Assembly (NCBI RefSeq): GCF_001447785.1 | Contig: NW_015174272.1 | Location: forward strand, 2,075,071 to 2,139,070 | Direction: 5' to 3' | Origin: Gekko japonicus | Lineage: Eukaryota | DNA: 64,000 bases | Part shown: in pieces, positions 25,850 through 64,000 of the stretch | Layout: each line of letters starts with the position of its first letter | Numbering within the stretch: position 1 is the first letter of the stretch | Program-made: the position numbers and the translations under genes | The notes under the pieces: model-generated | Told to the model about the DNA's origin: nothing | The model's database searches: none | Seen by the model: only the letters and a program-made list of their open reading frames with translations

Positions 25850-26700
25850 ACTCCGGTCCCTTTAAATTTACCAGCCCATCTCCCCAACCGGATCTTTCCT
25901 TCCCTAGCCGTCACTCGCTCCCGTAATCCAACCGGTCTAGAACAAATAGGTGCAACTGAACGCGTGCCCGTCCCGTCGCATTTCAGACTGTAAGACCCTC
26001 GGGGCAGAGACCCGCTTTGTGGTCGCTGTAAGCGTCCCTCGCTATGCAGCCTTAACGGTACCCCAGAAGTGAACGAACGACACTCGCCGCCGCTGCCACC
26101 TCGGTCTTCGCTCACACCAGCTCCCCCCGGCCTGCGTGCAGGATGACCCCTCAAGCCTAGCAGCGCCCCTTCGTCCTCCACTCGCCGCTGCCGCCACCAG
26201 CCCAGCCCCCCCCCCGGCCCCTCCCAGCAAGCACAATCAGCCCCCCTTCAGCCTCGTCCCCTGGAAAACCATCCCTGAGACCAACTAAATTCGCATCCTC
26301 CCCTCCCCGGTCATCGCATACCTCCTTCAAGGCCCGGCGCGAAAGAGGCCACTTTCTGCCAACCCCGGTCCTTATTATTCCCGATCGCCGCCACAGGAAA
26401 CGCGCCAGCTTCAACCCGGATGCGAGAATCCGCCAGAACAGAGCGGGCTCACAAGGAAACCTACGCGAAGAGCCGCTCTAGCCGCAAGTCCAGCCCTCCT
26501 CCTCGGGCTTCGCTCCCTCCTCTGACAGACAAAGGAGACCCCGGAGTGCCGGAAGGTCTGCGCCTGAGCAGGGCTGGCCCTTAGTGGTGGGTGTGGTGGG
26601 GGGTTAAGGCGGGGCTTGCTGATGGACGGGAGCGCAACGCTAGGTTTAGGAGGTTGTTGGACTGAGGTTTATTAACTGGCCGATCCCGATGCGCGTTTTA
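25850..26700. promoter_or_regulatory. CpG island / divergent promoter region between RNF41 (-) and NABP2 (+)
   Basis: Sharp rise in CpG and GC; GC box GGCGGGGC near 26608; ETS-type CCGGAAG near 26550; the two genes point away from it. Confidence 0.85.
26116..26430 (-). other. RNF41: Putative RNF41 first (non-coding) exon
   Basis: Lies in the CpG island, G-rich on the minus strand, ends at donor GGT|gtgagc (26115); resembles mammalian RNF41 exon 1 as recalled; TSS approximate. Confidence 0.65.
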
Positions 26701-27969
26701 CTCAGAAGTAAGTCCCATTAAGTTCCCCTAGGACTTACTCTCGTGCAACTAGGTATAGGATTGCATCCTTAGACGCTTGGAGTTGCAGTCCCTGGAGTTC
26801 ACTGGGGCTTGATTCTGAGTACCTCATCCTTAGGAAGTTCGTGCGGTGTTCTAGCTGTGTCTTGGACTCTGAATGTCCCCTGAATGTACAAGTAATGGAT
26901 AAATAATGTGTAAAACAGTAATGCGTATTGCTTCCTTTCTAGAAAAGGAGATGTCAAGGCTCATGACTGTCTGGAAACAATTCCCTCTTAACTGGAAGCC
27001 CTTTCCCCCAAATAAGACGAGGGAGATGTATTCTGCACCCGCTAAAGGGTGCTTCCATCTGTTCTTATTTTGTATTGCGCCAGGATTGAATCCTGCCACT
27101 GAAAACTGATACTGGGTCTGAGCTCTGGCACAAATTCAGCAATGAGCCACTCTGAGCCAGTTTGATGCAATTTGATACTAGCGGTGTACACTGGAACTTT
27201 ACCATTTTTTGACATGGCAGCCAGCCTTTGGATGTGAATACTCTGATACCTCGGTCATTATTTGAGTCTAACTCTCTTGCTGCAGTCAGGAAAAATGTTT
27301 GACATGTTAGTTGACAACAGAAATAGAGGAGAAAGCTGAAAACTGTTTGAGATAGGCCTTTACCCCCCCCCCCCACATACACCCCTTTTGTAGGTACATA
27401 CAATGTCTATGTAAGTGTGTATATATAAGTAGGTAATGTGTTTGTGATGCTTTTGTTGTATTAAATACTGTTTTGTTACAAATTGCATGTTAGCTGTGCT
27501 TCACATGCATTTTTTGTTATGTAATATGGGTAGCTCTCCAGTCAACAAATGTTGGAGCATTCTTTCAAGCAACACGTGTTGAAGCATGCATAACAGGCCA
27601 GAGTGTGGGGCTTTGTGCTTCTTTTTGGCAAAGGTGGCCTGTAGTCAGGGCTGAGGCCAATGCTGAACTAGTATTACCTCCCCATGTTTCTGACCATATC
27701 GTGCTTTCTCCTTTGCCACAATTTGTACACAAAGAGCAGCACATATACTGACAGAAAACAAAACTGGACCTTTGACCTGACAGTTGCAGTCCTTGTGGCC
27801 CAAATAATTCAAGTTTTCCAACATTCCATATGCCACAGTAGAAACTGGTTTTTCCAGATGCTGTACTGTAATCTCTGTTTCAAGTTTCTATGCAAGCCCC
27901 GTGCACTCTCCTGTATGGACAAAAATACATGACCTTTATCCTATTTTGTATGTCCCTTGTATGTCCCAC

Positions 27970-30769: not shown

Positions 30770-30946
30770 TCCGCTTGCAATTGGCGGAAAGATTGGAACA
30801 TTCCTGCATGTTGGAGGACAGCGTTGTGCCGCGATTGGCTGCTCTGAACGCAGCAGGACACTTCCTGGAATGTCAGCAACCCACCGACGTTCTGCCAGGT
30901 CTCCTCACTGGAAAAGTGGTGGTGGGTGGGGGCTATTTTTTATCAC
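30770..30946 (+). promoter_or_regulatory. NABP2: Candidate NABP2 proximal promoter and non-coding exon
   Basis: Local CpG cluster; three inverted CCAAT boxes (ATTGG at 30780, 30792, 30834); ETS-like CACTTCCTG; donor CAC|gtaagt at 30947. Confidence 0.55.
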
Positions 30947-31799
30947 GTAAGTGATTAATAGCTTCAGAATTTTTGGTAAGGGAGATGTGGGATTTCAGTA
31001 ATCTCTTTGGTGTTTTGTGCCTTGAAAGAAAGGGCTGCGTGAATGCTGTAGGATAGGCAGAATCCATGTTCTTCAAGAGGAACGCTGCTCACCAGCACGT
31101 TCACTAAGTTGTTCCATTGTAGTTTTAAGATCTCTCTTTTTTCCTTGTGTTCTAAAATCACGGTGGAGGGATTTGCTTTAGCATTAGCAAATCAACCTTT
31201 GCTTCACCCAGAAGGGAAGCATGCACCACCAAACATTTGCCAGAGGTACACTTTGTTTGTGCTGGTGTGAATGGTGGTGGAAGATTGTATAAAAACAAGG
31301 AAAGATGTCTTTTTTCTTCTTCTTACAGTGGCATGTGATCAGCACTGCAGTTTGAGCAAGGATGCTTTTGCTTGTTCTTTTTAAACCAGCTTTATACTAG
31401 TGATAAAGAGAGACTTTGCATACTGTGCTGAAAAAACAGGTAACTGTTGATAGAACGATAAATGGTTTATATGTATATTGAATAAGTGATCTGCTTAATC
31501 TGGAGAGTACATACACACTACTACAGCTAATTTATTCACAATCTGATTTGCTAGACAGTAGTACAAATAAGTGTCTGCTTATTCAATGAATGGTTTGATA
31601 CATACTGGTCTAGTCTATGTTCATGTGGAAACAGAGCTAGTAAAAGATTGTGATCTTATATGTCCTAAGATTTCAATCAGTTGGGCCTGTTATTATATTG
31701 GTGCTAATGTTTTGTGTTGGCTTTGTGTGGGTTTTTTTAGATTAATCTTGGAATGTCAGAGTGAGCTTTTCTTTTCTTTTTTTGCACCGACCATAGATA

Positions 31800-45028: not shown

Positions 45029-45226
<198 letters not shown>

Positions 45227-46503
45227 TGGGTACAGGACTAGAGGGCATCTCTTCTTCTACCGTCTGCTTGTAACCTTTTTACCTCCTAGTGACCTAACTC
45301 TGAGGCAGAGCGGTAGATATTGAGAAGAGATGGACACTGGGCTGGAGCACAGACTATGAAACCAACTTAAGTTTAGCCACTGAAATGTACTTTTAACATG
45401 TGATGCTGAGCACCAGGTGAGGAATATGGTCCTCAGTATATTTATACTTGTATTTCATGTAAAACTTGTACTTTCAGGACTCCCCACACATGTATACTAC
45501 ACTTTCACTCTTGCAGGAAATTGCCATGATCACTCTTCCAGCTTGTCTGATTTTTGTCGCACCATTTATCTTCTCACATCACTTTCCTGCCCTATGGGTG
45601 TGTGTCCTTGAATTTAGCACCATTTAGACTTCTGCAATCCTTAAAATCATTTATTGACATGGTAGATTCATAGTGAGGTTTGTGAAACTATCCTGGATTG
45701 AATTGTTTTAAGGCTGCGAACAAAAAGACAGCTATGTTTGAGTTTCTATGAAGTGTTTAGCTCTCACAAATATCTTTTACACGGGAGGGGGTATAGCAAG
45801 TCACACACAAATTTGTGCCACCTTTTCCATGCCAAACTAATATTTACTATCTCTAGGTTGCCAATACGATGACTGTTGTTTTTTCCCCAAAAATATTTTT
45901 AATAGATTGAAGCATCCTGTGGGTAGGCTTCCATAGATGTAATGATGTTAGATTAGAAGTGTGGCAAAACTGACATGAGCAGATTTTTAATTGTTCTGAA
46001 AAACTAACATTTTATTGTTGTTTTTGTGCTAGATGGCTAAATTAGATTGTATGTTTTTATTCCAGTACGCTTCAACGTGGCTGGCATAACAGTTTAACAG
46101 GGTCAGACGGTTACTGGCTCCCTGCCCATTATAGGGCCTACCAACCAGGAACTTGTGCTGCCATCTTTGTTCTTATTTAGTGCAAGGCCTTCAGAGGTGC
46201 TACATGTTGTCTCTGGCCTTTCTAAGCCTTATGTGAAGAAAGTATTCTTCCCACACTCCCCTAAGATACAACAGGGGTCTTTTGTCTCCTCACTGGCCAG
46301 GCCTTCACTCCCACCTGAGAAACTGAAGGAGCCATCGGAGGCCAAGGGCTCCAAGGGCCTTTAGAAAGCTATAGCATTTAGTGGCCTGAAGGAACATGAG
46401 TTATGGCCTGCATTGTAAATGGAATTGTTGTAAACCTTGAGAATAGGATCGGATTTTAACACTAAAATGTTTGCCCAAGTTTTAACACAATTTCTTAAAA
46501 GTC

Positions 46504-46509
46504 AATAAA
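46504..46509 (+). terminator. Candidate NABP2 polyadenylation signal
   Basis: AATAAA about 1.3 kb after the stop, followed by T/GT-rich sequence; a second AATAAA lies near 46750. Confidence 0.5.
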
Positions 46510-46987
46510 ATGTTTTACATTTTTTTGTAATTGTGGCCATAAATCAACAATATTTAAGAATATTTTAAAGGCCGTTTGCCTATTTGCTTGGGCCTCATTC
46601 TCCCCATTCCTGTGCCTCTGTTCTTTTTTCCAGAATATTAGCATGAACTAGCTGGGAAACAGGTTGTAGTATTGGTATTTTTTTAAGGAACATTACATTT
46701 GTCTAATCTGGTGTGGCTACTTGAGTGTACTATCAATGAATGTTTTGGGAATAAATACTTCAATCTTCCTTTTCTTTATTCTGCAAATCTCTGATCAGAG
46801 TAAATGGGTCATTCCATGTAACTGTGGGTACAAGGACAAAAACTCTTTATTTTTCATTAATTTTTACATATAAACCTAAGATACATAGTTGTGTAGGTTA
46901 ACAATAATTCGTGAGCAAATCTAATCAGACATCCTATGGTCCCTATCTTGATATTGTCTGATCATAAGGTAATGTAACAAGAGTTAA

Positions 46988-49010
46988 ACAGGGTTGCACT
47001 TACCTGTGACTGTTGTTCATTGAATTGTCTTCCATGGAGGCACACATCTAGAACTGTGCAGGTGCAGGCCAGTCAGGAGAGAACTTTCTAGCTGGGATGT
47101 CACAAGCTGCTTACCAATGGAGATGGGGTGAGCTGAGACAGTGGAAGGAGTATCATCTAGTCAAACAAAGAATGCAAGCCTCTTTCCCCACAGCTGACTC
47201 CTAACAATCATCAATGTCCACAGCATAGTGCTTGACGAATGTGTTGGCCAAGGACCATGTCACCACTCTACAGACATTGTTGATCCAAACACCATGGAGG
47301 AAAGCTCCTGATGAGGTGAGAGCCTGGTGGAATGAGCTTTTGCAGGGGGAGGACAGGCAACACCAACATGTAAAGAATACCGTTTAATGGTTTGAACAAT
47401 CCAGCATGAAATCATCTGGGAGGACAAAGCAGTGCCCTTAGGAGGGCCCATATGACAAACAGCAAGTGTTCCTTGCGAAAACATGTGGTACAATGTGAAT
47501 AGTACAATAAAGTTCTTTTAAGGTCCAACATATGGAGTGCTTTTTCATTTGGTGAAGAGAGGTTTGAAAAAAGGCAGGCAGAGGGATCACCTGGGGTGAA
47601 ACTTGGAGAAAACCTTAGGCAAAAAATGGAGACTGGGTTTGAGAACAACCCTATCTGGAAAGAACTGGATATATGGAGGGTCATTTCTGAGGGCAGCCAA
47701 CTCCCCCACCCAGTGTGCAGAGGAAATAGCCACCAGAAAACATACCATGAGGGATAAAAGGGGGAGAGAACATGTAGCTAAGGGTTCAAATGGGGGCAGC
47801 ATCAAACTAGAGAGTATGAGAGAAAGGCTCCATTGCAGAACTGGATGAGTTACAGGGGGATAAAAGATTATATAACCCCTTCAAAAATTGTTTGGAGGTG
47901 AAATGTGAGAACATAACATAATGGAAGACAAAGATTGCGGCAAGGTATACCTTAACAGCTGAATGAGTGAGGCCTGACATCTTTAGGTGTAACAGGTAGT
48001 TTAAAATTAAAGGTAATGGACAAGATGAGGCTTTATGCCCAGTAACTGAGAGCCACAAGGTGAATCTCTGCCATTTATAGCCATAGGATTTACAAGTAGA
48101 ATGCCGGCGAGTGGGGGGGGGGGGGGGGGGGGAGGTGTGGCTAATTGCCCCAGAGGAAACTAACGTGCGGCCGCCCGAGCACAAGTCCCGGTCGAGGTCC
48201 CGTGGTTAGGGGGGAGATGCCGACCAGACGGGTATCCTGCAGCGCGGCACAGAAGCCGCGCGGCACGATCGCACTAGCAATCGCTCTTTGTGCGCATGCA
48301 CTGTTGGGCGCTGTTGCGCAACCTGTGGAGACAAGCACCGGATGCCACGTAAGTCCACCGGAAACGCGATCAGACGCCTGCCCTTGGCCCGCGGTTTCTG
48401 GAAACTAGTACCTTGTAAGTACTAGTTTTTTAATCCGGACCTTCGGCGGGGAGCCACGGGTTCGCCACGGGAGCACTGCACTTTCCAGATGTTGGGGTGT
48501 GATCGCGCCCGGAAAATCTGCGGGACTCCCGTGCATCTCCCGTGGCAACTTTGCCATGACCGGGGCCTTAGTTTCTGCAGACTGTGACACCATAATGAGC
48601 CCTCATGTAGAAGGTCCTGAGCTAGAAGAAAATTATGAAAACAATGCTGGGACACAGCAGCAGAACCACGGCTAAAAAGGCGCTATCACTATGGCATGGG
48701 TTCTTTCCTGAGCTATCTTGGTGAGAACTTTCCCAGAAGAGGGTTCGGTGGGAAGGTGTAAATGGTTCCTCTTCAAGGGATTTGGAAGGCATTGCCCAGA
48801 GATGCAGGGTTATGGCCAGCCCTGGAAAAAAATGGGGGCTTTCTTGTTCCATCTGGTGGCAAATAGGTCTATGTTTGGGAAACCTCATGCCTGAAATATA
48901 GGAAGGATGTAGTGATTGGTAATAGAACACTGTGGTTAGGAAGGGAGACTGCTCAGGAAAATGGCTTGTTTGTTGTCTACCCCTGCAATATGGATCACGT
49001 GAATGTGATT
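46988..49010 (-). mobile_element. Decayed DIRS1-like tyrosine-recombinase retrotransposon (RNase H end, methyltransferase-like domain, YR, terminal repeat)
   Basis: Minus-strand motifs in order: HIAGVDN, PNIDLFAT, GNAF, IYTFP, STCKSY..KW..F, LVAISSAHWVGEL, FLPKV, LHMLD, AHSTR, TFVKHY. Confidence 0.88.
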
Positions 49011-49199
49011 GGGGTGAGATCTTTCCCTCTTTTTCCTTCCAACCTCACCAACTAACAGAGAGATTAGCCACAATATATAATCCTCACTCATAAGAGACAC
49101 AGAGATATGAGATTGGGATGTTAGTTGCAGCTGGAAAAGGGAGACTGTCTCAATAGTAAAGTTCCTTCAACAGAGCGATGACGATCCTGTACAAACCAA

Positions 49200-49900
49200 C
49201 CAGTCTCAGCCATACACGACGTTGTGCTCTTCCCACATCTACCAAAACGTCTGGATAATGCCAGAATCAGCGGGCACGTCATTCTAGTCTACTTTTTTTT
49301 AAATCTCCACGGAGCCACGGGAAAGCGTGGTTGCCCCTGCACAGCACCTCACTGCGGCTCTTTGCAAGTCTCCCGACAGCTTTTCCGCCGGCGGAACGCT
49401 TTCAGGCTAGCCACGCCCACCTTCCCGCCAGTTTGCCTCGCCGTTCGCCACGCGATCAGAGGGGGCTTTGAAGGTCCTTTGGAAAGAGTTAAGTGGCCTA
49501 GAGTAGTGCCTGAGTCCGCGACAAGGTAGTTTTCACGGCGTTTCAAAGGAGGGTTTTTTTTAAAGAAAGGAAGGAAGGGTATGTGGATTGAGTTTAGATG
49601 GATTTTCTGGAGCGAAGTTCAGGAAATGAGATTTGGGATAGTCGGGAAGAGGTATTGATTACCAGTTTGCGTAGTCTGCCGGTCAGGCAGAATTTAGGCG
49701 CCCCTAGAGAAGGTAGCTTGGAGGAGCTGCTGCAGCCGACACTGCGTTGGGGGTTCGGGTGGATTTGGTTTTTTGTCGTGGGAGGAGGTGGTGGTGGTGA
49801 GAACTGAGTAGGGGGAAGTAGCGAGTTTGGAAACGAGGCAGTTTTACTGTAGAGAGGATCTGTGGTGGCGTAGCAGTGTTTGTGAGAGAGTAAGCTATCA
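49200..49900. promoter_or_regulatory. CpG island / promoter upstream of the CNPY2 coding exons
   Basis: CpG-dense segment; E2F-like TTCCCGCC near 49422; GCGGAA motifs. Confidence 0.8.
49458..49889 (+). other. Non-coding first exon (PAN2 exon-1-like), probably used by CNPY2 and/or PAN2
   Basis: Starts in the CpG island and ends at donor AGA|gtaagc (49890); PAN2 similarity is from recollection, not from an alignment. Confidence 0.55.
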
Positions 49901-50304
49901 AGTCTCCGGTGCAAGTCTCACTTCTGCCACGCATTGTCCAGGGGGTAGTCCGTTTTCTCAGTACTTGCCTCTCCATGTGCACAAAACTATTGACCTACTT
50001 TACCAAGTTGCTGTGAAAGACTGATGATAGTGGTATCCGTGAAGTGATCCCCACGTTCAACTCGTATGTTATAAATGCCGTTATCAGCTTTCTATGGCGA
50101 AAGGGTGGTCAGTGGCATGTATTCTGCCTTAGGCTGGATAAAGTTTCTGCAGTCCAAGGAGTCTTCCAATTTAAGTGGTTCTTCCGTTGGAAGAAGGCTT
50201 TAAACGTTGCTCAGTGGAGTGATATGATCTATGCTACTAAAACTAGTGGTTTGAAATATGATGAAAGGGGAGGGTTGATGTTGATCAAAGGATAGAGTAG
50301 GGAA

Positions 50305-50328
50305 NNNNNNNNNNNNNNNNNNNNNNNN
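50305..50328. other. Assembly gap (24 N)
   Basis: Run of N. Confidence 0.99.
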
Positions 50329-50689
50329 GGGGGGGAATGAGCATCAATTCCCTTAATATCATATATCCTCTCCTTACCAGGATTTTAAAAAAATCTCACA
50401 TACACAATACTGTTTTCATGCTCTTCATTGGATGTTTAAAATCTATGCTATTTGGTTGTGTCAAACATTTTGGTAGGTCTTTCTTTGGAAACTGGAATAA
50501 TTTCCCTTAAACTTTCTCTTTAGCTAAAATTGTGATATGCTTGAGCATCTGGAAACCAATAATAACTGCTGCCTTTGGCCTGCCACACAAAGGGCACTTT
50601 GTGTTCTAAACCGAGCTCAGTGGATAAATGCTGGCTTTTGGTAATGTTGCTCAGCACAGTAGAATGTACTATGGAACTTTGCTGGGACC

Positions 50690-52801
50690 TGAATGTCAGG
50701 CAGCTTGTATGTGCTCATGATGGAGGCTAGGATGAGGTTCCTTGCAACAGCAGCAAGTTGTTTTGGGATCTGAGGGACTGGCTAAGACTTGGCAATGAAC
50801 TTGGGACGAAGCTGTGAGGAACACAATATAGAGCCCAACTGAAGGCCTATGAGGTGGCAGTGAAAGCAGTGAAAAAAGATAATTTCACCACCTTCATTGG
50901 ACCGCTAGCTTGCAGCCAGCTCAATTATTCAGATTGGTTCAACAGTTGACGTGTCCTAAAACTGATACCGATTTTGTCCTTTAGCTGTGATTCATTTGCA
51001 AAGTTTTTTGCTGATAAAATCTGTAAGCTCCTCCTGGATCTGGCCACTGAACTTAATAACAGTAGTGTGATGGGGGCTCTGCTTGCACTGTCAGGTTCTT
51101 TTTTGGACTCTTTTGGCCTGCTCACCCTTGCAAATGTTGACAGGATCCTGTCAGCTGTGAACCTGCTGCTTGGATCCTTGTCCCTCATGGCTGGTAAAAT
51201 CATGCCATGAAGTGGTTAGTGGCCCTTTGAGACAGATTAATAATTTGTCTCACAGGGCTATTTCCCCAGCTCCCTTAAGGAGGTGATTGTTAGACCTTTG
51301 CTAACCTTTGCTTGTTAGATAAAAAAGGAGCTGGCCAGTTACCACGCAGTGTCTAATCTACCTTTTCTGGGGAAGGTAGTTGAGGGGCAGTGGCTGAGCA
51401 GCTCCAGATTATCCTGGATGAGACATCTGCCCTGGACCCTTTTCAATCAGGTTTCAGGCATGGCTTTGGGACCGAGACAGCTCTGGTTGCTTTGGCTGAC
51501 AATCTCCATTTACATCTGGATAAAGGCATGCTGGCAGTGTTGATCTTTCTGGATCTATCAGCAGCTTTCGATATAGTTGACCATTTGGTCCTGATCAACT
51601 GCCTTGCCTCCCTGGGGGTAAAGGCCGTAGCTGGTTTTCCTCATTCCGCCAGGGATGCTCTTAGAGGGTTGCTATTGGGGAGGAAAGGTCTTCCTGATGA
51701 GACCTGAATTGTGGGGTCCCACAGGGTTCGATCTTCTCTGTGCTGTTATTTAACATATCTATGCACCGTCTTTTCAAGATTGTAAGGAGATTTGAAGTTG
51801 GGTGCCATCGATGTGCTGATGACACTGAACTCTTCCTTCTGCTGGATAAGCAGCCAACGGTAGGCTCTTGGCAGTATCCTAGTGCCTTGATGCAGTAGTC
51901 CAGTGGTTGGGATCTGACTGAAGTTGAATCCATCCAAGACGGTGGCCACGTGGCTGGAAAAGACTGAGATGTTAGGTGGAGGGTCACTCCCAAGATTCTG
52001 TGGTGTCCAGCTGACAGCTTTAGACTCTGTAAAGGGTCTCGGGATGTGGTTAGATTCTGAACTATCATTGGATAAACAAGTGTCCGTGGTAGTACAGTTG
52101 GTATTTTAGCTTACGCCAGGCCTGCCAGCTGGCTCCTTATTTGTCTGGGTCAGACCTTGCAACATTGATCCATGAAATGGTCACCTCCAGATTGGACTTC
52201 TGCACTTCGCTCTGCATAGGACAACCCTTGAAAATGCTTCGGAGACTGCAGGTGGTCCAGAATGCAGCTTCCTGGTTGCTGACTGGAACATCATGGTCAG
52301 ATCATATTACTCCAATTTTGCAGCAGTTGCACTGGCTACCAGTTAGTCTCTGGATTCAATTCAAGGTGTTGGTGTTAACCTTTAAAGCCCTTAACAGTCT
52401 GGGGCCCTCATACCTATGGGACTACCTTGCTCCCTTCGGTCATAGTCTAGGGGCCTTTTACAAGTGCCTGGCCCCAGGATGGCTCAGTTAACTGTCACTG
52501 GGGAAAGGCCTTCTTAGTTGTGGCCCCTAGCCTGTGGAATGCACTCTCAGATGATATCTGTGTCCTGCCAGACTTGTTTAGTTTCGGCAGGGTATGCAAA
52601 GCCGAATTGTTTGATTTTGGGTTTTTTTAGTGGTATGGTGCTATTCACATATTTTAATAGTTTAATATATTAATATTAATATTTAATATTTGTTATTTGT
52701 TTTATATTGTTTTTACCTCATTATATGTTTTTAATGTTGTAAGTCACCGTGAGACCCTTTGGGTCAGTGGCGACTAAAAAAAATTTCTAATAAATAAATA
52801 A
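50690..52801 (+). mobile_element. L2-clade LINE fragment
   Basis: SNLPFLGK, LDPFQSGFR..TETAL, LDLSAAFDIVDH, HITPILQQLHWLPV; (AATA)n tail. Confidence 0.92.
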
Positions 52802-52876
52802 GACTATTCCTATGCTGCGTGGAAGCTAACTTGTGCCTTTACGTGCAGTCTGTTGTGCTTGGCCACATCCACGAAG

Positions 52877-52976
52877 ATGAATGGCTGGGTTTCAAGCATG
52901 CTCTGCATGTCCGTCGTCCTCTTACTGCTGTTAAAGGGTGCCCTTACCCGGAAGAGCCAAGATCTCCATTGTGGAG
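52877..52976 (+). CDS. CNPY2: CNPY2 (canopy 2/MSAP) coding exon 1, signal peptide
   Basis: MNGWVSSMLCMSVVLLLLLKGALTRKSQDLHCG; hydrophobic signal peptide; Kozak AAGATG; acceptor tgcag| at 52849; donor G|gtaaaa. Confidence 0.94.
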
Positions 52977-54227
52977 GTAAAAGGAGCAAACTAAACCATC
53001 TACTAGTTATTTAATTAATTACACAGTAGTGGCCGTACTGAATATATGTCAGCACATTACAGATGTGTTGATTTTCCTAGTGCTATCTAACTTTCTGATT
53101 TCAGCAAGCACAGTTTTGATTTGATTGCTGAGGTCTCTGAGGCATTTCTAAAGGACACAGTGAATTCTAGATGTCATGGGAAGGTTGATAGTGGTGGGCA
53201 AGCTGGTGAAATTTATCTTCTATTTCTTGCTTTCTTATTGTAGATAACAGAACTATACATAACATGCAGATTATATTCATTACTTTGAAAACTGAACATA
53301 GCTGAGTTTCAGGCATGCTCTGCCCGTCCCTAAATGGTCTGTGACCATCATACCTGAAGGACCACTGTGATCCCCCACGTTGTCTCTGTTCTTCATCACA
53401 CAATCTTTTAGTGGTACCCGGCTCTCAAGTGGCTCACCTACCAGAGTAAGGGTCTTCCTGGTCAAATGCTCTATCAGAGGACACAAATTGTATTTTACTT
53501 GTTATAAGCCACCCCAAGCCTCACATGTCAAGGGAGTGATGAGGTACAAATTTGATGAATAAATAAATAAGCTGTGGGAGCTGCAGTTCAAAGGTAGAAA
53601 CTGACATGTGGGGGGAGGGGCAAAGGCCTATTTAACTCTCTTCCCTTTGCATTGTGTTCCACCAAAAATTGCCATTACCGTGTTGCTTTTGCCCCTGCTG
53701 GGGGGAACACATGCAGGTACCCACAAATCTGTGTAATTTCCCCCCTCACAGTTGGGGCAGAATCAGCTTGGAGGTGGCACTTTTCAGTGGGAAATGACAC
53801 AAGAAAAATAGCACTGTTTTCCTTAAGTCAGTTTGTCTTTAGATCCTAGTCCCAGCAGCTGCATTTTGTTAAAAGGCAAAAATAATTGCTGGGTTTGTAC
53901 AGTATGTGTACTTTTTGCCCTTAGTCCAGCCAGCAGAGGTTTGCCATCTGGACCCAGCATAGCACTTGCTCTTAAAATATGCTCCTTTATTATGTACCTT
54001 GCATCAGAATCTTCCACTGTATGCTTAAGGGGTGTGCATCTGTATGTTTTGCACTGTAATGGGGTGAGTGGCTGGGAGATTAATACTGGTAAATCTCTAC
54101 CAAAGCACTTGTTGCTCTTCACTCTGAAGGAGGGGGTGAAAATGCCTCTTCCCTGCCTTTCAGCTGATGTACAAGAGAATCAATGGGAAGGACCAGCATC
54201 ACTCAGTTCAAAATACAGCCCCTGTTA

Positions 54228-54266
54228 NNNNNNNNNNNNNNNNNNNNNNNNNNNNNNNNNNNNNNN
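54228..54266. other. Assembly gap (39 N)
   Basis: Run of N. Confidence 0.99.
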
Positions 54267-55571
54267 TAATTAAGGGGTGAGTCCAATGTTGCCTGTCCTG
54301 GGGGAGACTGCCAAGACATGATTTCTGCATTTATATTGGTTTTACTTTGCAAATCAGCTCAAATGTATGACACAGTTGTGCACTAGAACACCCCTGGTGG
54401 TAGCTAGGCCTTGACATGGAAGCCTATTGTGTAATTGGGCTAGTGGTATGGTCAGCATAATACAAATGTTCTGTCCCACCATACGAAGTGCTTATCGGGA
54501 AGGGAGGTGTTTGGACTGCTAATGTCCTTCCACAAGACCCACGTCTTTCAGAAAACAATGTTTTGGAACTACCATAGCTTCAGCTTAGCTGTGGCTACTA
54601 GATTTTCTCTTATGAAGGGTTGCTAGTTTCCAAAGCAGAAATGGCACCTGTTGTTTTAACAGCAGAGCTGAAGGCCTTCTTGATGCTGGAGGTGAGAAGG
54701 AGACTAGGCGTACAGAATTGTTTTATTGCCCTGGAAAGTCTTAAAGCAACTGGTGTTGTCTTCAGGTCAACAGAGGGGAACACTATCCACTCATTTTCAG
54801 CCCTTTCTGTAGACATGCATACAATTTATCTACCTAATACTAATTGTAAGTAGATCACAATACATCACAATTACTGGTGTGCACAATTGTATGACATCAA
54901 AGATAACTCCAAGGGGTAGTGGATCCTTTCCCACAATTTTTCCTGCTTTTGCTTCCCTAGCTAATAATTGTTGCATATTAAAGTCCTAAAGCATGTATTT
55001 ATCTGCCTCTGTTCTATGAAGTATGTGGATAATGTGTATAGCAAGATCTTTGTTCCCCCTTGTTGCACCTTCACTCCCCTGAAGTCGTAGAGTCACCTAT
55101 GTGTGAAATGTTTCATGTTTGCAGTAGGTTTTGTCTTGAATACTGCATTTATTCAGATTACAAATTTTCACAAAAATGTTGGAACTGGGTGTAAATCATC
55201 AGGGTTTAGGTCCATATGATAGTTGAAAGGCGGGAATTGGATTTTGGAAATGGCCACTGGTGGGATCGATGAGCATTTGATTGGTAGCACATGAGTGAAA
55301 TGGAAAGCTGAGGTAAGCTCTGCAGTGGGTAGCCAAGGTTTTTGATCCTATTTGGATTTGTCTGGATAACTTCCTGTTGAGAGTTTTGAATAGTCCTATG
55401 AACAGCACCAGAAGGTCATTTAATCCAGCCCTGTAATGTGGGGAAATAAGAATCCTTTTGTTTTTATGTTTAAGACTAGATTCTGAATGTGCCTTTTGAA
55501 ATTATGTCTTTAGCATGAATAATCTCTTCATTAGTTGTTGCTATCTGGATTTAAGTTTTATTTCCTTTTAG

Positions 55572-55687
55572 CATGTCGGGCCCTGGTAGATGAACTGGAG
55601 TGGGAAATTTCTCAGGTAGACCCCAAGAAAACCATCCAGATGGGTTCCTTCCGCATCAATCCAGATGGAAGTCAGTCGGTTGTAGAG
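55572..55687 (+). CDS. CNPY2: CNPY2 coding exon 2
   Basis: ACRALVDELEWEISQVDPKKTIQMGSFRINPDGSQSVVE; tag|...|gtaatt; 116 nt. Confidence 0.97.
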
Positions 55688-57944
55688 GTAATTGGATTTT
55701 TCTGTTTATTTGTTCATTTAGAAAGTACTCATGTGTTACTGTTCTGCTTGATGCCAAGTGTATACAGTGTTGCCAAGTGTATACAGTGTTTTACAATAAA
55801 AGGGAATTGTTCCACATACAATAACGATAATAACAAAAAAAGAAACAAAGGCAACATTGTCAGATAAATGCATAGGAAATGTAAAATGTCTTCTTTCTTC
55901 TCCTTAGGTGTTACTGTTGCTGAAGCTCAAATTGTTTCTCTTTAAAGGCTCTGGAACAGCCACAGGAAAATAGTATACCTGGCTGGAGGGCTATGTAGCA
56001 ACTAGGGCCGGGTAGCAGCAGGTATTTTCATCCCTTGGGAGCAGGTGTCTCCTCATTCAGACAGCTGAAGAGCTCTTGGCCCTTCCTTAATAGCAGTGGC
56101 GACTGATGGAAACACTAGGATGGCAATGATGTCATTCTTATCTCTAGAACAGGAGATGAGGAAATATTTTGGACACTGCTGTATGATTGACATCTGTGGA
56201 AACAGTCTTCTGCTTGGATGATAAACTTTTGATAAAAAGAAATGGAGACTCTAGAATCTTTCTTGCTCTTATTCCTTCCCTCCTTCCCTAGCTCTATAGA
56301 AGTTTCCCAAATGGGCTGAGGCTGTATAGTCAAGAAGGTATTTCTCTTTCAAAATGAGGTAAAGGCATGCTCAGCATTCTGTGAGAGACATCCATCAGCT
56401 AATCTGTTTATTTTCATATACCTCAATAGCCTTACTGCCAAAAAGCCTGAGGCAATTTACAGCTGAAAATATAAAATCAAACCATAAAACAGACATTATA
56501 TAAGAGTCTTAGAACAAAATTCAACAATCAGTTAAAAATCTAGAAACACAGAGTCCAGTGTAACTAATTAAAGCAGCAAAAACTTTCCCCAGCTGCTTAA
56601 AACAGATGAGCTTTCAGTGGTGTCATAAAGCCAACAAGGTGGTGTGTTGACACACCTGTATAGGCAATTAATTCTAGAGCACTGGGCTCATGGTTAAAAG
56701 AGTTATGATTCTTCCTCTGGCTATTTTACATCAACCTTTAAAAAAAAATTATTGAACAATATAACAATATTACAAAGTGACAGTAGAATGGAGTGCAATC
56801 AACAAAGAGCAGCAAAAGATAAATACAAACAAAGCTCCAAATATCACACACATCTTAACAGATATAAATTAGCATTGGAACCTTCAATATAGCATGAAAA
56901 GGAATAATTACAATTCATTCAATATGAACAGAGAAGAGAGATCTGACTCTTGACTAGTACATAACAACTATTTGAGATGCCTGACGAATGCTTGTGTAAC
57001 AAGGGGTACCATTTCCCTAGAAGACTGGGCGAGGGACCTCTAGACTTATCTAACCTTGATGTGGGAGTTCTCAGCAGCACTCAATGAACTTAGCAATGAT
57101 GGGGTGTACATCTCATTTTGAGTGCCACTGTTAGAGCAGTTACCTCCAGTGTGGTGTCCACAGGCATCATGGTATCTGCTAATGTTTCATGGCACACACT
57201 TCTTTCCTCCCCCAAGCAAACAGCCAGTCTTGCTTTCCTCCAACTCACTTGGGCTGGAGTTCCTTCAGAGGAACCCAAGTGGTACCACCTTCATATCTGT
57301 AGGCAGCATCCATTTGGAAGTGGCAGTCTCTATTATAGGTAGACAAGCGGCTTGGAGCTTCACAACAAGGGCCAAGGCAGCTATTTTGTGATTGGCCATG
57401 CCCCTCATGACCGATTTTGTGATGGCACCCTACTGCCTGTTTGCAAAGCTTCTAGAGTGCTCCAGAAACTCAGCAAGGTTGGGGACCTATAGGTTAGAAT
57501 GTTCAATTAGGGCTCAGGAGTCCTTGGTTCAAATTCCCAGCCTTCTCTTAAACTGGCTGGGTCACCTTTGCCAATAATTCTCTGTCAGCCTAATTTACCT
57601 CTCAAGGCTGTTGTAATCCTCTGCTTGTAGGAAGGGGATTAAACCAAGGTTTGGAATTATGGTTTGTGGGGAGAAAAATTCTAATTTGCATAGGTGCCTG
57701 TATTGGGAAGTCACAGCAAAATGAAGTTTGACTCAAGGCTTCCCAAATCTAGAAGACTTCAGTCACAGTTCTTCTGTATTGGAGGAGGGAGAAGACATCA
57801 TGCTTTTCATGGGCAAACTTCTATTTGTCATGAAGTCAACTGAAACTACTGTGTACCAGAGTGGAAATGGGGTTGTTTTTATTGTTGGCTGTGGTAAAGA
57901 GGCTTTTGCCATCTGCCTAGCAGACTGTCTTCATTCTGCCATAG

Positions 57945-58142
57945 GTGCCCTATGCCAGGTCTGAAGCTCACCTGACAGAATTGTTGGAGCGTATTTGTGA
58001 GAACATGAAAGACTATGGAGAGAATCTGGATCCATCCACCCACCGTAAAAGTTATGTAAGGGTTATCTCTCATGACGGGACTAAAATGGACCTTTCTGAA
58101 ACCAAATTTGACAGTGATGTGTCGTCAAGCCTGAAATTTGTG
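57945..58142 (+). CDS. CNPY2: CNPY2 coding exon 3
   Basis: VPYARSEAHLTELLERICENMKDYGENLDPSTHRKSYVRVISHDGTKMDLSETKFDSDVSSSLKFV; tag|...|gtgagt; 198 nt. Confidence 0.97.
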
Positions 58143-58976
58143 GTGAGTACACAGCTGGCTGTTGTAAGTCTTGGCATTTGGAAAAAGGAGATCTTACTGT
58201 TGGATCCTTTGTAGCAAATATTATGTAGTAAATTAGTTGCAGTATTATGGCTTAAAGCTAGCATTTTGGGCTATCTCCTTGATATACAGAATATATTATG
58301 GACATAGGACAGAAAAGGATAGATACAATAGACAATATATAAGAAGACTAGCCATCACGGCAGTCTGTAGTTTGCATGCCAAGCAGCTAAGCCCCATCAA
58401 GCTTTTAATAGGTTTCTTCGGAGTATCCTTAGGTTCTGTGCAGTCTCTTCCCCTTCTGCGTAAGCTAAACATTGGGGGTGGTGAGGGGGTTGCATCAAAT
58501 AGCTACATTCATTTCCAGTTTCTTTGTTGCCACCCATGTTCCTGCAGTACCTTTAATAATTTTTTATTTCCTTCATTTTTTGTCTGCCGTTCTTGTTGAG
58601 GCTCAAGGCCTATTACTGCAGGAGCCAGTGGATAAGCACCACTCATATACCCATGTGATCAGCCTGCTTAGCAAGGGAGCATTCATTATGATGGCTATAA
58701 GGGCATGTATATTGGCTTCCATATGTATAACAGTGTTTCTGCTTGTGGAATGAGAGGAGCCATGTCATCAACATGATAATGGCTAATACAGTAGGCTCTC
58801 ACTCCTACACAGGCAGGCTCAATTTGAATTTTGACTATTTTCCATTTTACAGCCTGTCATAAGAGGAGAGTTGCCAAAGTAGTCTTGACCCTCGTATTAG
58901 TGGTGTTTATGATTGGCTGTGCCTGTGGGATGGGCAGCAGAGTTGCTTGACTGGTTTCTTTGGTTCTCGTGTGCAG

Positions 58977-59073
58977 TGTGAGAGTATAGCCGAAGAGTAT
59001 GAAGATGAACTCATAGAGTTCTTCTCCCATGAGGCAGAAAACGTGAAGGACCGACTATGCAGCAAACGCACAG
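58977..59073 (+). CDS. CNPY2: CNPY2 coding exon 4
   Basis: CESIAEEYEDELIEFFSHEAENVKDRLCSKRT; cag|...|gtgagc; 97 nt; final HDEL exon not seen in the window. Confidence 0.96.
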
Positions 59074-60919
59074 GTGAGCGTGTGGGATTCCAGGATCAGG
59101 GGCTTTAAGAATGGGCTCAGTCAGCATTAGCAGACTTTAAAAAGAGGTAGGAATCAGATCATACTATACATTTTCTGGGCAATTCATGGTGTTGAAAGGG
59201 AAGGGATTTGGTTGTAACATTCAGTCAGTCCATTGGACTAATTGATTGAATCCTTATTGATCGTTTTAAAAGGTGTCCCCAATTAATTGGGATGTAGATA
59301 TTGCAGTATGCTTTATTATTTTTAACATGGTTACTTACAAGAACCACAGGTAGCAGGTGCCATTTTTACAAGAGGCGTACCTTGTTCTATCTTGCAAAGG
59401 AATATTTCTTTTAAGATGTTTCTCTTTTCTACATACATGGGATTGTGTGAAGCACCAGGGGTCTCTTTGGGATCAGCAGTACCTTCTAGCATCTTGCTCC
59501 CTTGACACTGGGCAGGGGTGGGGCTAAACACCACGGCCAACCTCACACTCCCCCTGGAAAACCTGACCCTGTTGGGGCTGGCCAGCTTGGACATGAGGCA
59601 GGTTCCAGGTCAGCTGGTGTGCCTGGGCCCTCAGTATGGGGTGGAACCTCACTACCCTGTCACCCTATTGGGAAGATAGTCCAGCACCACCAAGTGAGCC
59701 CAAGGCTGCTGGGGTGTCATGTTCACTGTGTAAAAAATAAGTAAAGGATGCAGTGTTCTTCAGAACCATGTATTATGCAGGGTTAACTGATTAAGATTTA
59801 TTTAATCTTGGGGGAAATTGACTTGCATAGGAATCTTCTTCCCAACAAGTTAGACTGAAAAATGTCTTGTTAGGCAACAAGTAGAAATTGTCAGCTAAAA
59901 CTTTTAAAAGTTTGAGCTCGCTCCTGTGCCTTGTCTGTCTGTGTCTCCATTCTTACAACATACCCAGCCATGGTTCAGGCTAACCCAGTTCAGAATCCAA
60001 ACCATGATTTGAGCCTCCAGACATACAACAGAAACCCTGGCTTTAAGTTGCTTCACTACTTTTATTCACTGTCCTTATTGTAATTAGCCTCACTCCTCCT
60101 TCTGTGGAGCAGCAGCCTCTGGAGGCAGAGTTATGGCCATAGTCTTGTAAATTCAGGCATGGTGCCATTGCCAAACTTCTGATTCTGGTTGCCAGCCAAT
60201 TGCAAATATGTGAATTCAGACATCACATCAAACTGTGTTCTAGCATACTGCAAATAAATAAAACCTGCCGCTGCCAGAAAGATCTGAGTATCCCAAACAC
60301 TGAAATTATCAACATATGAAGAAAGCACGGTGTTGATAGCTGTATTCCATCTTTTACAACCGTCTGAAGATTTTTTATTTCCCTTTTTTATTTCTGCCAA
60401 TTAGTTTCGTGGAGCCAAGAGAACAGACCAATAAAATCTCTCCTTGCTTCCTTCTTTTTCCAAAGACGTTCATTGGCTGTCAAAAGAATGACAGGTTGCC
60501 AGGTTGCCTTTGAGGCAGCTTGCATGTAGCACTGAGCTATTTTTGGACAACAACCTTGACTGTGCTTGTTTCCACCTGACCCTTGCCCCCTGCTGTTTTA
60601 GGACAGGAGGCATGCCATGGCACTACAGCCAGAGTATATCCATTGTGCAGTATCTGTTTTTGACCAGTATCAGCAAACACAGCAGTGCTTACCTGATAGA
60701 TCAGTAAGATAAGGGTACCATCAGCTGTTTGCTGGCAGGAATGTCCTTGATGATTGTCTGGTAACTAGATCAACTGTATGTTTGCCTATATGCATGGCTA
60801 GATTTTATAATGATTAAAAAGGTAAGTTAACCCTGTTTGTTGATCCTGTGGTCCAATAACTCAGTCATCTGTTCTACATTCCTTCTACATAAAAGAGGTA
60901 ATGAAAATGTCTGGGAGGG

Positions 60920-61090
60920 AAGCATGGCTGAATGGTGGAGCACATAATCTTGCATAAAGTAGGCCCCAGGTTCAGTCCTCAGTCTTCTCAGTTAATAAGG
61001 ACCTTGAAAATTTTGTGCTGGAAAAGACCTTTCTCTGCTGGAGAGCCTCTTCCAGAGTAGACTGAGCTAAATAGGCCAATGGTTGGATGC
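60920..61090 (+). mobile_element. tRNA-derived SINE (old)
   Basis: Degenerate A box TGGCTGAATGG and B box GGTTCAGTCC. Confidence 0.5.
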
Positions 61091-61220
61091 CATATGGGGT
61101 TGGAGCTTTATATATAAGTCAACCATTAGGGAAGTTGTTGTGGATGCATCTCACTGGGCCTAGACAGACACAGGCAGAGATGCAAGCCCGTTACCGTGAT
61201 CACATATTTAATAGTGATGA

Positions 61221-61778
61221 CCTAAGGGACCGCCTCTTCCCGTATGTTCCCCCAAGAGCGCTGCAATCGGGGAGTCTCAACCTCCTCGAGGTTCCGGGCC
61301 CCCGAGACATCAAGCTTGCCCTAACCAAGGCCAGGGCATTTTCGGTGGCGGCTCCTACCTGGTGGAATGAGCTCCCGGCGGAGATCCGGGCCCTGCGGGC
61401 CCTTGTACAGTTCCGCAGGGCCTGCAAGACGGAGCTCTTCCGCCAGACTTTTGAGTAGGAGCCGCCACCGCCGCCGCCGCCTCTATACCACCTCCATGAC
61501 TCGACCCTATCATCTACCCTGTTTCTGGGAGGGGGGTAGATGTCGCCCGGTTGAGGAACATCACTCCTGGCGCTCACGCTACTACAACACCGGCCGCCAA
61601 TGAGGGACATTGTGCATCTTGGGAAATTTAGTGAACTGTAGAGCACCATTTTGGCTTGTATGTATTAATGTTTTAATGTATTTTATATTTTATTCTGGCG
61701 TTGCCGCTTGTTCGCCGCCCTTGGCCGCTTCGGTAGGGCGGGATATAAATCCCAAGTAAATAAAAAAAAGAAAAAAAA
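61221..61778 (+). mobile_element. Young L2 3' end
   Basis: Open frame LRDRLFPY..AFSVAAPTWWNELP..FRRACKTELF*; CpG-rich 3'UTR; A-rich tail. Confidence 0.9.
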
Positions 61779-62179
61779 TGAGTTGCCTCGTGTGAATGGA
61801 AGTATTCTCAAAGAGGACCCATCTAGGACTAAAGTATATGTTTCTGCAGAAAACGATGAGGTCCTTAAAAAGTGTGGAGTCAACTCCTGCATAGACATTG
61901 TGGGGAGAGGGGAAAGGATATTCAGGCAATGTTTTAGCAATTATTGTTGGCTGACATTGTGTGATTCCCCCATCCAGAGGTGAAAGGGACCAAACTAGTG
62001 GATAGTAAAGGAGAGGGGTAAGAGTTTCCAAGGGGGAGGGGATACAGGAGCTGGTAGAGGGGAAACACCAGCTGGGGAGAAGGTAAGAAGTAGTAGAGAT
62101 GGGGGGAGGAACTGAAAAAACATCATGTTAGTATTAAGTACTGTCATGTCAACAGGAAAAAAAAGTAGGATGCCTTGTG

Positions 62180-63066
62180 GGGTTAAGTACCATCAGTTTG
62201 CTTCTGACTTACAGTGACCCTATGAATTAATGGCCTCCAAAACATTAATGTCCTTGCTCAGGCCTTGCAAACTGAGGGCCGTGGCTTCCTTTGTTGAATT
62301 AATCCATCTCATGTTTGTTTATTTATATTTATATTTATTTATACTTTTTATTTATATTCCGCCCTCCCCGCATGTTGAGTGTTCCTCTTTTTCTGCTGCC
62401 TTCAACGTTTCCGTCTTTTCCAATGACTCTTGTCTTCTCATAATGTGACCAAAGCACAATAACCTCAGTTTAGTCATTTTAGCTTCTAGGGAGAGTTCAG
62501 GCTTGATTTAATGAAGAACCCACTTATTTGTCTTTTTGGTGATCCACCACATTTCAAGTGACTCAAGTTTCTTCCTGTCAACTTTCTTCATTGTCCAACT
62601 TTCAAACCCATACCTAGTAATGGGGAATACCATGGCATGAATTATCTTGACACATCCTTATTTTTTCTGGCTCCATTGGCTTCTCTTCTGATTTATTGGT
62701 TGCAGTCTCCCTTATGATTGATAGAGCCAAGGAATAGAAAATCTTGAACAATTTCAATTTCTTCATTGTCAGCCTAACAGCTGTGTAATCCCCAGTAATC
62801 ATTACTTTTGTCTTCTTGATGCTAAGCTGTAATCCTGCTTTGGCACCATTTGCTTTAACCTCCATCAGTAGTCGTTTCAAGTCTTTGCTATTTTCTGCCA
62901 GTAATGAGGTGTCATCTGCATATCTCAATTTGTTTATGTTCCTTCCATCAGTTTGCACTCCACCTTCATCTAAATCTAATCCAGCTTTCTTTATATGTTC
63001 TGCATACATATTGAACAGACAGGAAAATAAAATGCATCCTTGTCTTCCACCTTTGCCAATTGGAAA
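62180..63066 (-). mobile_element. RTE-clade LINE 3' fragment
   Basis: GRQGCIL..INKLRYADDT; same family as 11286-14440. Confidence 0.9.
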
Positions 63067-64000
63067 CCCTCCCCCCAAACTACAAACCTTTAAAATACTT
63101 CATTTTGTTTTTACAACCAAAAGAATAGTATATTTCCATCCCAAAAACATACAGTTCGACACCAATGTGAGCATCCTACAAGAATGTTTAAAAAAGGTCC
63201 ACCATCTTGCAAAATGGCAGCTACAGGAAAAATGGCTATCTCTACAACTATTATACAGCTATTATCAACCTCAACAACATATATTTTGACACTGGGCATC
63301 CTAGATGAATTTTAAATATCAAAATAACCATATCCACCATCTTGGAAAATGGTGGCTACAGGAAAAATGTCCCCAAATTGGGAAGTCTACCCAAGAAAAT
63401 TTTAAGGCAATAGTGCCCTGAAATACACACTAACAATAAAATTCTCTGTACATATTTTTTTTTTGGGGGGGTGTCTATTGTGAGCCCAGGTGTGTGACCA
63501 CTAAACTGAATGCAGCTCTCTAGCTGTGTGTGAGGAGCTTAATACTTCCTGGTTGTGCTGTGTACTTGAGTCTTCAAGAAACGGCAGCAAGCAAGCACCC
63601 AACATGGCCAGAATTCAGGAGGGGGCAGCCATGGTAGCCTCAGCAACAGGGCAGCTTTGGCCGTGTGTCCCAGGGAAGCTCAAAAGGTACGGAGGCAGTG
63701 AGCAAGCCTGGATGGGAGAACAGTGGCTCTCTGGGCCCAGGTGTTTTTAGGCAGGACATGGCTGTGGAGAGCAGGGAACAGACAAGAGGAGGTAGAACTT
63801 AACTAAAAGGCCAGGTGTGAAGGTAGGGCTATAAAAAGAAAAGAAAGGGAAATGGGAGGGGGCTGGCCGAAGGGAGAAGGCACGCGAGCAGAAAGGGAAG
63901 CCAAGCCGGCTAGGAGAAGGGAGAAGAAGCAACCAGTTGTCTCAGGGAGGTTCCTAGGCAAAGAGGCATGTTGCAGTCTTGTGGCTCCTCTCCTTGTAAG

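What the first reader, a model, noticed from the sequence alone, without database searches (positions are those of the whole stretch)
49458..59073. PAN2-like first exon sits directly upstream of CNPY2: possible shared first exon or nested two-gene unit
Seen: one CpG-island exon (49458-49889, donor gtaagc), followed by a CNPY2 exon that begins with a splice acceptor (52849) and so needs an upstream exon. No other CpG island and no PAN2 coding exon is visible between them. Recalled, not aligned: blocks such as GAAAGAGTTAAGTGG, GTCCGCGACAAGGTAGTTT, AGTCGGGAAGAGGTA and GGTGGTGGTGAGAACT resemble the human PAN2 5' leader, and in human PAN2 lies upstream of CNPY2 on the same strand. Inference: one promoter and exon may be spliced either to CNPY2 (ER chaperone/UPR factor) or past it to PAN2 (deadenylase), so the choice of splicing or poly(A) site would couple the two genes. 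Alternative: the PAN2 body is hidden by the 24-N gap.
Basis: partly seen in the sequence, partly recalled or inferred. Interest (0 to 1): 0.75.

Follow-up and report, generated by a model that had tools for sequence, protein, structure and literature searches.

The report
Ordinary gecko CNPY2 first exon
This stretch is the non-coding first exon of the gecko CNPY2 gene, spliced to it from three alternative points in RNA data, and nothing found supports the idea that it is shared with the PAN2 gene, which is absent from the window and likely lies elsewhere on the chromosome.

Summary
The anatomy is real, the PAN2 story is unsupported. The window encodes Gekko japonicus NABP2 then CNPY2 (170 of 170 residues identical to RefSeq). 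RNA reads and contigs join three donors (49889, 50063, 50472) to acceptor 52849, so the exon is CNPY2's first exon. CNPY2 models of two other geckos use homologous sequence. The 24-N gap is about 32 bases and hides nothing. No PAN2 coding sequence is in the window (0 of 119 homologues). Transcription likely starts near 49721, downstream of three of the four 'PAN2-like' blocks. None of the blocks occurs in 18 guides from the human PAN2 start, which cover only 287 of 591 bases, so homology is neither shown nor excluded. Human and mouse PAN2 and CNPY2 have separate starts. Accession neighbourhoods suggest that squamates moved CNPY2 beside NABP2, likely by an inversion, while turtles keep the human order. 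A splice from this exon to a PAN2 beyond the window was not seen, but 214 loose-end rows were hidden. The scan's earlier notes hold nothing on this locus.

The parts
45030..46770 (+). Last exon and 3' UTR of NABP2 (SOSS-B1), the upstream neighbour; poly(A) signals at 46504 and 46750; 3' end approximate
   Evidence: 100% tblastn match to RefSeq NABP2 P0304; AATAAA sites
46970..49050 (-). Likely decayed DIRS-type retroelement (tyrosine-recombinase-like pieces); limits by eye
   Evidence: Weak Pfam Phage_int_SAM_1 hit, E 0.017, below cut-off; ORF text; the family label is recalled
48100..48600 (.). CpG-rich multi-copy repeat, not a single-copy gene promoter
   Evidence: CpG o/e 0.91; summed contig depth 488-762 and many divergent loose ends
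49200..49720 (+). CpG-island promoter region, likely CNPY2's; holds blocks 49482, 49514 and 49640; only low RNA depth
   Evidence: GC 0.52, CpG o/e 0.86; depth table
49721..49889 (+). Core of non-coding exon 1, short form (start inferred); leader of 195 nt without an upstream ATG
   Evidence: Joint 49889->52849 in X21 (1 read) and X1 (contig depth 27.4); start and ATG scan; Paroedura CNPY2 model matches 49697-49757
49721..50063 (+). Exon 1, longer form (donor GTATGT); two short upstream ORFs (49975, 50024)
   Evidence: Joint in X21 (4 reads, 4 starts) and X1 (17.6); Sphaerodactylus model matches up to 50102
50305..50328 (.). 24-N gap; true length about 32 bases
   Evidence: X1 record 1 spans 50034-51376 with 1351 letters, 0 other letters and 8 put in; X2 also lists insertions here
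50432..50472 (+). Third donor (50472) with an in-frame ATG at 50432; adds 23 residues (RefSeq isoform X1)
   Evidence: Joint in X20 (1 read) and X2 (37.3); P0243 residues 1-13 identical
50750..52800 (+). Decayed LINE filling most of intron 1 (limits by eye); holds the RefSeq X2 alternative exon 51819-51859
52849..52976 (+). CNPY2 exon 2: acceptor, ATG at 52877, signal-peptide-like hydrophobic stretch
54228..54266 (.). 39-N gap; true length 66 bases
   Evidence: Spanned by contigs of X1 and X2
55572..55687 (+). CNPY2 exon 3
   Evidence: PF11938 E 1.5e-9; joints
57945..58142 (+). CNPY2 exon 4
   Evidence: PF11938 E 4.2e-14; joints
58977..59073 (+). CNPY2 exon 5; spliced to a last exon beyond the window
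   Evidence: PF11938 E 5.7e-7; loose end in 18 X21 reads and one X1 contig

Best explanation
The exon is the non-coding first exon of gecko CNPY2, spliced to the coding exons from three alternative donors, and it sits 3 kb behind NABP2 likely because a squamate inversion moved CNPY2 with its own promoter away from PAN2. Shown: a CpG-rich region is transcribed and joined from 49889, 50063 or 50472 to acceptor 52849, giving an intact CNPY2 mRNA. Inferred: the main start near 49721. Inferred: the leaders differ in upstream ORFs or a 23-residue extension and could differ in translation. Inferred: the ancestral order NABP2-(three genes)-CS-CNPY2-PAN2 was broken by an inversion with ends just after NABP2 and just upstream of CNPY2 (about 0.6 on its own), which would leave PAN2 with its own promoter, probably on the other strand.
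For: Three GT-AG joints into 52849, each seen in one raw-read run and one contig run. Window exons give 170 of 170 residues of RefSeq CNPY2 P0248, and RefSeq already lists alternative 5' forms. In a back-translated alignment of 54 N-terminal extensions, the two top scores are gecko CNPY2 models (z 8.6 and 8.1); the best of 6 PAN2 extensions is z 1.8. Both gaps are closed. 0 of 119 PAN2 homologues hit the window better than E 0.025. Of 24 squamates with both accessions seen, NABP2 and CNPY2 are consecutive in 12, within 4 in 4, and far apart in 8; a Crotalus gene model fuses NABP2 to CNPY2. Turtle series read NABP2, several genes, CS, CNPY2, as in human (Caretta 5 steps; Natator 218/226/228). 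PAN2 is 55 tags from CNPY2 in Lerista, 13 from NABP2 in Phrynosoma, and 3 accessions from CNPY2 in Anolis carolinensis.
Against: Read support per joint is thin (1, 4 and 1 raw reads). 214 loose-end rows and 1 joint were hidden. In X1 the depth does not balance: 78.2 enters the 50063 branch and 32.3 is listed leaving; exon 2 has 115.9 with 45 listed entering; so an unlisted branch exists or depth is uneven. Accession numbers are often not positional: NABP2 and CNPY2 are adjacent in this window yet 23 apart in RefSeq, and PAN2 is also 17-339 from CNPY2 in turtles, caecilians and lungfish, so PAN2's distance is weakly shown. No outgroup CNPY2 extension (turtle, bird, mammal) matches the exon convincingly, so its ancestry is not shown. 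By eye, three human PAN2 guide fragments resemble 49590-49725 weakly on one diagonal (note).
Confidence: 0.84

Rival explanations
1. Shared first exon: one promoter feeds CNPY2 and, by skipping it, a PAN2 body downstream of the window on the same strand, as in RBM12/CPNE1.
For: The DNA beyond 64000 could not be read. X1 depth leaves about 46 units unaccounted for at 50063, and 214 loose ends were hidden. PAN2 is on the same scaffold or chromosome as CNPY2 in Lerista and Anolis. The guides leave 304 of 591 bases uncovered, and all four blocks could hide in the gaps in 5 of 268 registers.
Against: No such splice among the rows shown; in X21 the listed loose ends go down to 11 reads and none is at these donors. 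PAN2 is never consecutive with CNPY2 in the squamate series seen. Mammal and turtle order puts PAN2 upstream of CNPY2, so this model needs a second rearrangement. The missing X1 outflow is matched by missing inflow to exon 2, which one more CNPY2 donor would explain.
Confidence: 0.05
2. Promoter capture: the exon descends from the ancestral PAN2 promoter but now serves only CNPY2, after the PAN2 body moved away.
For: Weak by-eye likeness of three human PAN2 guide fragments on one diagonal, which would also place the human secondary start peak near 49667-49725 (note). No significant match to outgroup CNPY2 leaders.
Against: Each likeness is at chance level and was found after the fact; five other fragments on that diagonal do not match. 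A motif of equal weakness (49821-49830) points to mammalian CNPY2 exon 1 instead. It needs at least two rearrangements and a new PAN2 promoter.
Confidence: 0.06
3. The exon is CNPY2's, but some transcripts read through to the next gene on the strand (likely CS), as in the CNPY2-CS models of mammals.
For: CNPY2-CS fused models exist in 4 mammalian clusters (P0108, P0111-P0113; order checked for three); unbalanced depth in X1.
Against: No gecko or squamate CNPY2-CS model among the 120 listed of 125 hits; the loose end at 59073 agrees fully with the normal last exon.
Confidence: 0.04
4. The 24-N gap hides the PAN2 body and a separate CNPY2 promoter.
For: Only that the run read as contigs is a guessed RNA run, so a spliced contig is formally possible.
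Against: One contig crosses the gap with 270 intronic bases on the left and 1048 on the right, 0 other letters and 8 extra; X2 agrees; exon 1 is spliced across the gap to CNPY2.
Confidence: 0.01

Closest known systems
CNPY2 of Gekko japonicus (RefSeq XP_015279156-162) and other geckos
   Same: Identical protein over the 170 residues in the window; RefSeq X1 and X2 use the 50472 and 51859 donors; non-coding first exon, ATG in exon 2.
Human and mouse PAN2-CNPY2-CS cluster
   Same: Same genes in the same broad neighbourhood; tandem PAN2 then CNPY2 in mammals.
   Different: In mammals each gene has its own start, 17.9 kb (human) and 19.3 kb (mouse) apart, and human PAN2's end overlaps CNPY2's start by 114 bases. 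Here NABP2, not PAN2, precedes CNPY2.
Promoter-sharing pairs: RBM12/CPNE1, ANG/RNASE4, LEPROT/LEPR (PMC2568002)
   Different: Those pairs rest on cDNAs showing the exon joined to two unrelated coding bodies; here only one body is seen. PAN2/CNPY2 is not among the 24 human pairs in that paper's Table 1.

Membership tests
CNPY2 (Canopy, saposin-like) | DUF3456 / PF11938 domain | tested here: met
   Exons 3, 4 and 5 each pass the Pfam cut-off
CNPY2 (Canopy, saposin-like) | Six conserved cysteines (PMC6566547, passages) | tested here: met
   C32, 35, 90, 139, 166 lie in window exons; C173 is in the last exon, seen in P0248 and in the loose end
CNPY2 (Canopy, saposin-like) | N-terminal signal peptide and C-terminal HDEL | tested here: met
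   Hydropathy 3.16 over residues 9-19; P0248 ends in HDEL. The HDEL exon is outside the window and no signal-peptide predictor was run.
CNPY2 (Canopy, saposin-like) | ER localisation and co-chaperone activity | not testable with these tools
   Known for mammalian CNPY2
Promoter-sharing gene pair (RBM12/CPNE1 type) | A non-coding 5' exon spliced to the first coding body | tested here: met
   Three joints to CNPY2 exon 2
Promoter-sharing gene pair (RBM12/CPNE1 type) | The same exon spliced to a second, unrelated coding body | tested here: inconclusive
   None among 15 joints and 24 loose ends shown; 1 and 214 hidden
Promoter-sharing gene pair (RBM12/CPNE1 type) | Second gene on the same strand just downstream | tested here: inconclusive
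   No PAN2 within the window; accession series put it 3-55 steps away in four squamates but are not reliably positional
Promoter-sharing gene pair (RBM12/CPNE1 type) | Sharing conserved in mammals | tested here: not met
   Separate CAGE starts in human and mouse
PAN2 first exon | Sequence homology to a PAN2 5' leader or promoter | tested here: inconclusive
   0 of 4 blocks in 18 guides covering 287 of 591 bases, by eye; 0 of 6 PAN2 extensions match; no full PAN2 leader was available
PAN2 first exon | Followed by PAN2 coding exons before the next gene | tested here: not met
   The next coding exon is CNPY2's and the gap is closed

The most novel reading that the evidence does not exclude
In squamates the ancestral PAN2 promoter exon was rearranged in front of CNPY2 and is either captured by it or still shared, a minor splice skipping CNPY2 to reach a PAN2 body beyond the window; ER chaperone and deadenylase output would then be set by one splice choice.
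Probability: 0.08. Interest if true: 0.6.

Novelty: already known. Interest (0 to 1): 0.12.

Why it matters
As it stands it matters little: an annotated housekeeping gene with alternative 5' donors. Two small by-products remain. Both gaps are shown to be tiny. The NABP2-CNPY2 junction appears to be a squamate-wide rearrangement against a turtle and mammal order, usable as a synteny marker; searches found no paper on it (listings only). If the novel case were true, it would be a vertebrate example of a promoter changing owner or serving two unrelated essential genes.

Tried and rejected
No whole genome is held, so the DNA past 64000 could not be read. The run search listed no RNA holder on record among the indexed runs; this blank is no evidence on expression. 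The metagenome scan with one block gave 2 loci that share only 20-25 bases with the window: chance. Rfam: 0 matches in 64 kb. Full-text search for the four blocks: 0 papers. Supplement searches for the blocks and gene names: 0 files of 11 in PMC8260622 and 0 of 6 in PMC8831611; neither is known to hold the PAN2 leader, so these are uninformative. A 5' UTR library paper was not held. Six large guide-library files of PMC5094855 could not be read and may bear on the homology question. Pfam on 63 of the 187 ORFs listed in 1-26500 gave no real hit, so the gene on the other side of the 25.5-27 kb island is unidentified. tblastn of 59 N-terminal extensions gave six rows at 0 of 60 shuffles, only one of which (P0241) is also strong. 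The z 4.8 (goose) and z 3.7 (armadillo) rows were rejected: 54 tests, 12 shuffles, composition-biased. The bacterial promoter scan is irrelevant. Three exon ends were one base off and were corrected. The guinea-fowl PAN2-CS fused model first suggested an order CNPY2-PAN2-CS; it was rejected because a model that skips CNPY2 fits the human order too. Four look-ups in the scan's own notes returned nothing on this locus.
Full report
What is in the window. The four quoted blocks lie at 49482, 49514, 49640 and 49790, and there are two N runs, 50305-50328 and 54228-54266. The coding exons 52849-52976, 55572-55687, 57945-58142 and 58977-59073 have canonical splice sites and give 170 of 170 residues of RefSeq Gekko japonicus CNPY2; three of the four hit PF11938. 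The last exon is not in the window and appears as a loose end at 59073. The upstream gene on the same strand is NABP2, ending near 46770. Most of intron 1 is a decayed LINE. The CpG-rich stretch at 48100-48600 is a multi-copy repeat.

RNA evidence. Four runs of the same species label were laid on 48001-60000: two raw RNA runs, and two contig sets that are only guessed to be RNA. Three GT-AG joints enter 52849: from 49889 (1 read in X21, contig depth 27.4 in X1), from 50063 (4 reads in X21, 17.6 in X1) and from 50472 (1 read in X20, 37.3 in X2). All later CNPY2 introns are well supported (26, 29 and 80 reads in X21). So the exon is CNPY2's first exon, with at least three donors. RefSeq already has the 50472 form and another from 51859. 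From a start at 49723 the leaders carry no upstream ATG (49889), two short upstream ORFs (50063), or an in-frame ATG at 50432 (50472); any effect on translation is untested.

Where it starts. An X2 contig begins at 49723, and X1's depth implies a contig beginning at about 49721. Seven of the 19 holders in the run search hold 0.30 of the words, which is what a spliced exon from 49720 gives. X21 has 26 reads at 49917 and none at 49769. Contigs cannot prove a start, and the tool may drop human-like reads unseen, so this is an inference. If right, three of the four 'PAN2-like' blocks are promoter DNA rather than the main leader.

The gaps. One X1 contig spans 50034-51376 with 1351 letters, no other letters and 8 put in, so the 24-N gap is about 32 bases; X2 also lists short insertions there. 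The 39-N gap is 66 bases in both contig sets. PAN2 is not hidden in either.

Is it PAN2-like? None of 119 PAN2 proteins hits the window better than E 0.025. In human and mouse PAN2 and CNPY2 have separate CAGE starts 17.9 and 19.3 kb apart (PMC5094855, supplement rows). Eighteen guides around the human PAN2 start contain none of the four blocks by eye. They cover 287 of 591 bases, and all four blocks could fall in the gaps in 5 of 268 registers, so this test is incomplete. Against my reading: three guide fragments show weak gapped likeness to 49590-49725 on nearly one diagonal, each at chance level and noticed after the fact, while five others do not match (note). A second test used N-terminal extensions of gene models, which are translated 5' exons. 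Of 54 scored against 49200-50304, two gecko CNPY2 models stand out (Sphaerodactylus z 8.6, Paroedura z 8.1); the 6 PAN2 extensions reach at most z 1.8, but they are few and from distant taxa. No turtle, bird or mammal CNPY2 extension matches convincingly either, so the exon's deep ancestry is open.

Is it shared? No splice from these donors to anything but CNPY2 is among the 15 joints and 24 loose-end rows shown; 1 joint and 214 rows were hidden. X1's depth does not balance at 50063 (78.2 in, 32.3 listed out) or at 52849 (115.9, 45 listed in). One more CNPY2 donor would explain both, but a branch out of the laid stretch is not excluded.

Gene order. Fused gene models give NABP2-CNPY2 in Crotalus, PAN2-CNPY2 in Microtus, CNPY2-CS in mammals and PAN2-CS in guinea fowl. 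Of 24 squamates with both accessions seen, NABP2 and CNPY2 are consecutive in 12, within 4 in 4, and far apart in 8, the last group including this gecko, where they are physically adjacent. Consecutive numbers are therefore informative and distant ones are not. Sea-turtle series run NABP2, several genes, CS, CNPY2, which fits the human order (the three intervening human genes are recalled). PAN2 is 55 tags from CNPY2 in Lerista, 13 from NABP2 in Phrynosoma, 3 accessions from CNPY2 in Anolis carolinensis, 10 from NABP2 in Anolis sagrei, and on a scaffold of different length from NABP2's in two snakes. It is also 17-339 from CNPY2 in turtles, caecilians and lungfish, so this is weak evidence. 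The simplest reading is one squamate inversion ending just after NABP2 and just upstream of CNPY2, carrying CNPY2 with its own promoter. This step is inferred.

Comparison with what is known. Shared non-coding first exons are a known kind (RBM12/CPNE1 and 23 other human pairs; PMC2568002, abstract and sections 5 and 12 read); PAN2/CNPY2 is not in that list, and its defining feature, two coding bodies on one exon, is not shown here. CNPY2's family features come from PMC6566547 (passages); its role in PERK signalling is recalled. PMC13618004 (passages) and PMC6303322 (supplement rows) give the human neighbourhood. Thirteen papers hold both PAN2 and CNPY2 (listing and abstract starts, one read in passages); none of these indicates a shared exon.

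Verdict. An ordinary, already annotated CNPY2 first exon with alternative donors. Interest 0.12; residual chance of a PAN2-derived or PAN2-shared exon about 0.08.

Noticed in passing
window 46500-52900: NABP2 directly followed by CNPY2 on the same strand seems general in squamates (12 of 24 species with consecutive accessions, one fused snake model), whereas turtles seem to keep the human order: a likely squamate inversion breakpoint between 46770 and 49200.
   Followed up: partly
window 46970-49050, minus strand: Decayed element with tyrosine-recombinase-like pieces (weak Pfam hit, E 0.017), probably DIRS-type (label recalled), interrupted by a CpG-rich repeat; it lies in the inferred breakpoint interval but is probably younger.
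   Followed up: partly
window 48100-48600: CpG-rich multi-copy repeat, strongly represented in RNA (X20 depth about 80 against about 5 for CNPY2 exon 2), with a palindrome around 48405-48430; family not identified.
   Followed up: no
window 52976 to about 54164: Six X20 reads join CNPY2 exon 2 to a cryptic acceptor in intron 2, just before the 39-N gap: a possible cassette or poison exon seen in one run.
   Followed up: no
   Followed up: partly
window 49860-50063 and 52849: In X1, contig depth entering the 50063 branch and exon 2 exceeds the listed joints by about 46 and 70: an unlisted splice form may exist.
   Followed up: partly
window 25500-27000: Large CpG island upstream of NABP2, probably a two-way promoter; the gene on the minus strand was not identified (63 ORFs gave no real Pfam hit; RNF41 is expected from recalled human order).
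   Followed up: partly
window 30808-30971: Intronic stretch of NABP2 that matches the N-terminal extension of a Varanus NABP2 model (E 9e-8): a conserved alternative 5' exon or regulatory element.
   Followed up: no
protein P0134 and cluster of P0132: A guinea-fowl PAN2-citrate synthase fused model, and citrate synthases clustered with turtle PAN2, point to PAN2-CS read-through models in birds and turtles.
   Followed up: no
window 59074-64000: CNPY2 intron 5 exceeds 4.9 kb and holds a CpG-rich repeat at 61000-61750 and an RT fragment at 62617-63099 (minus strand).
   Followed up: no
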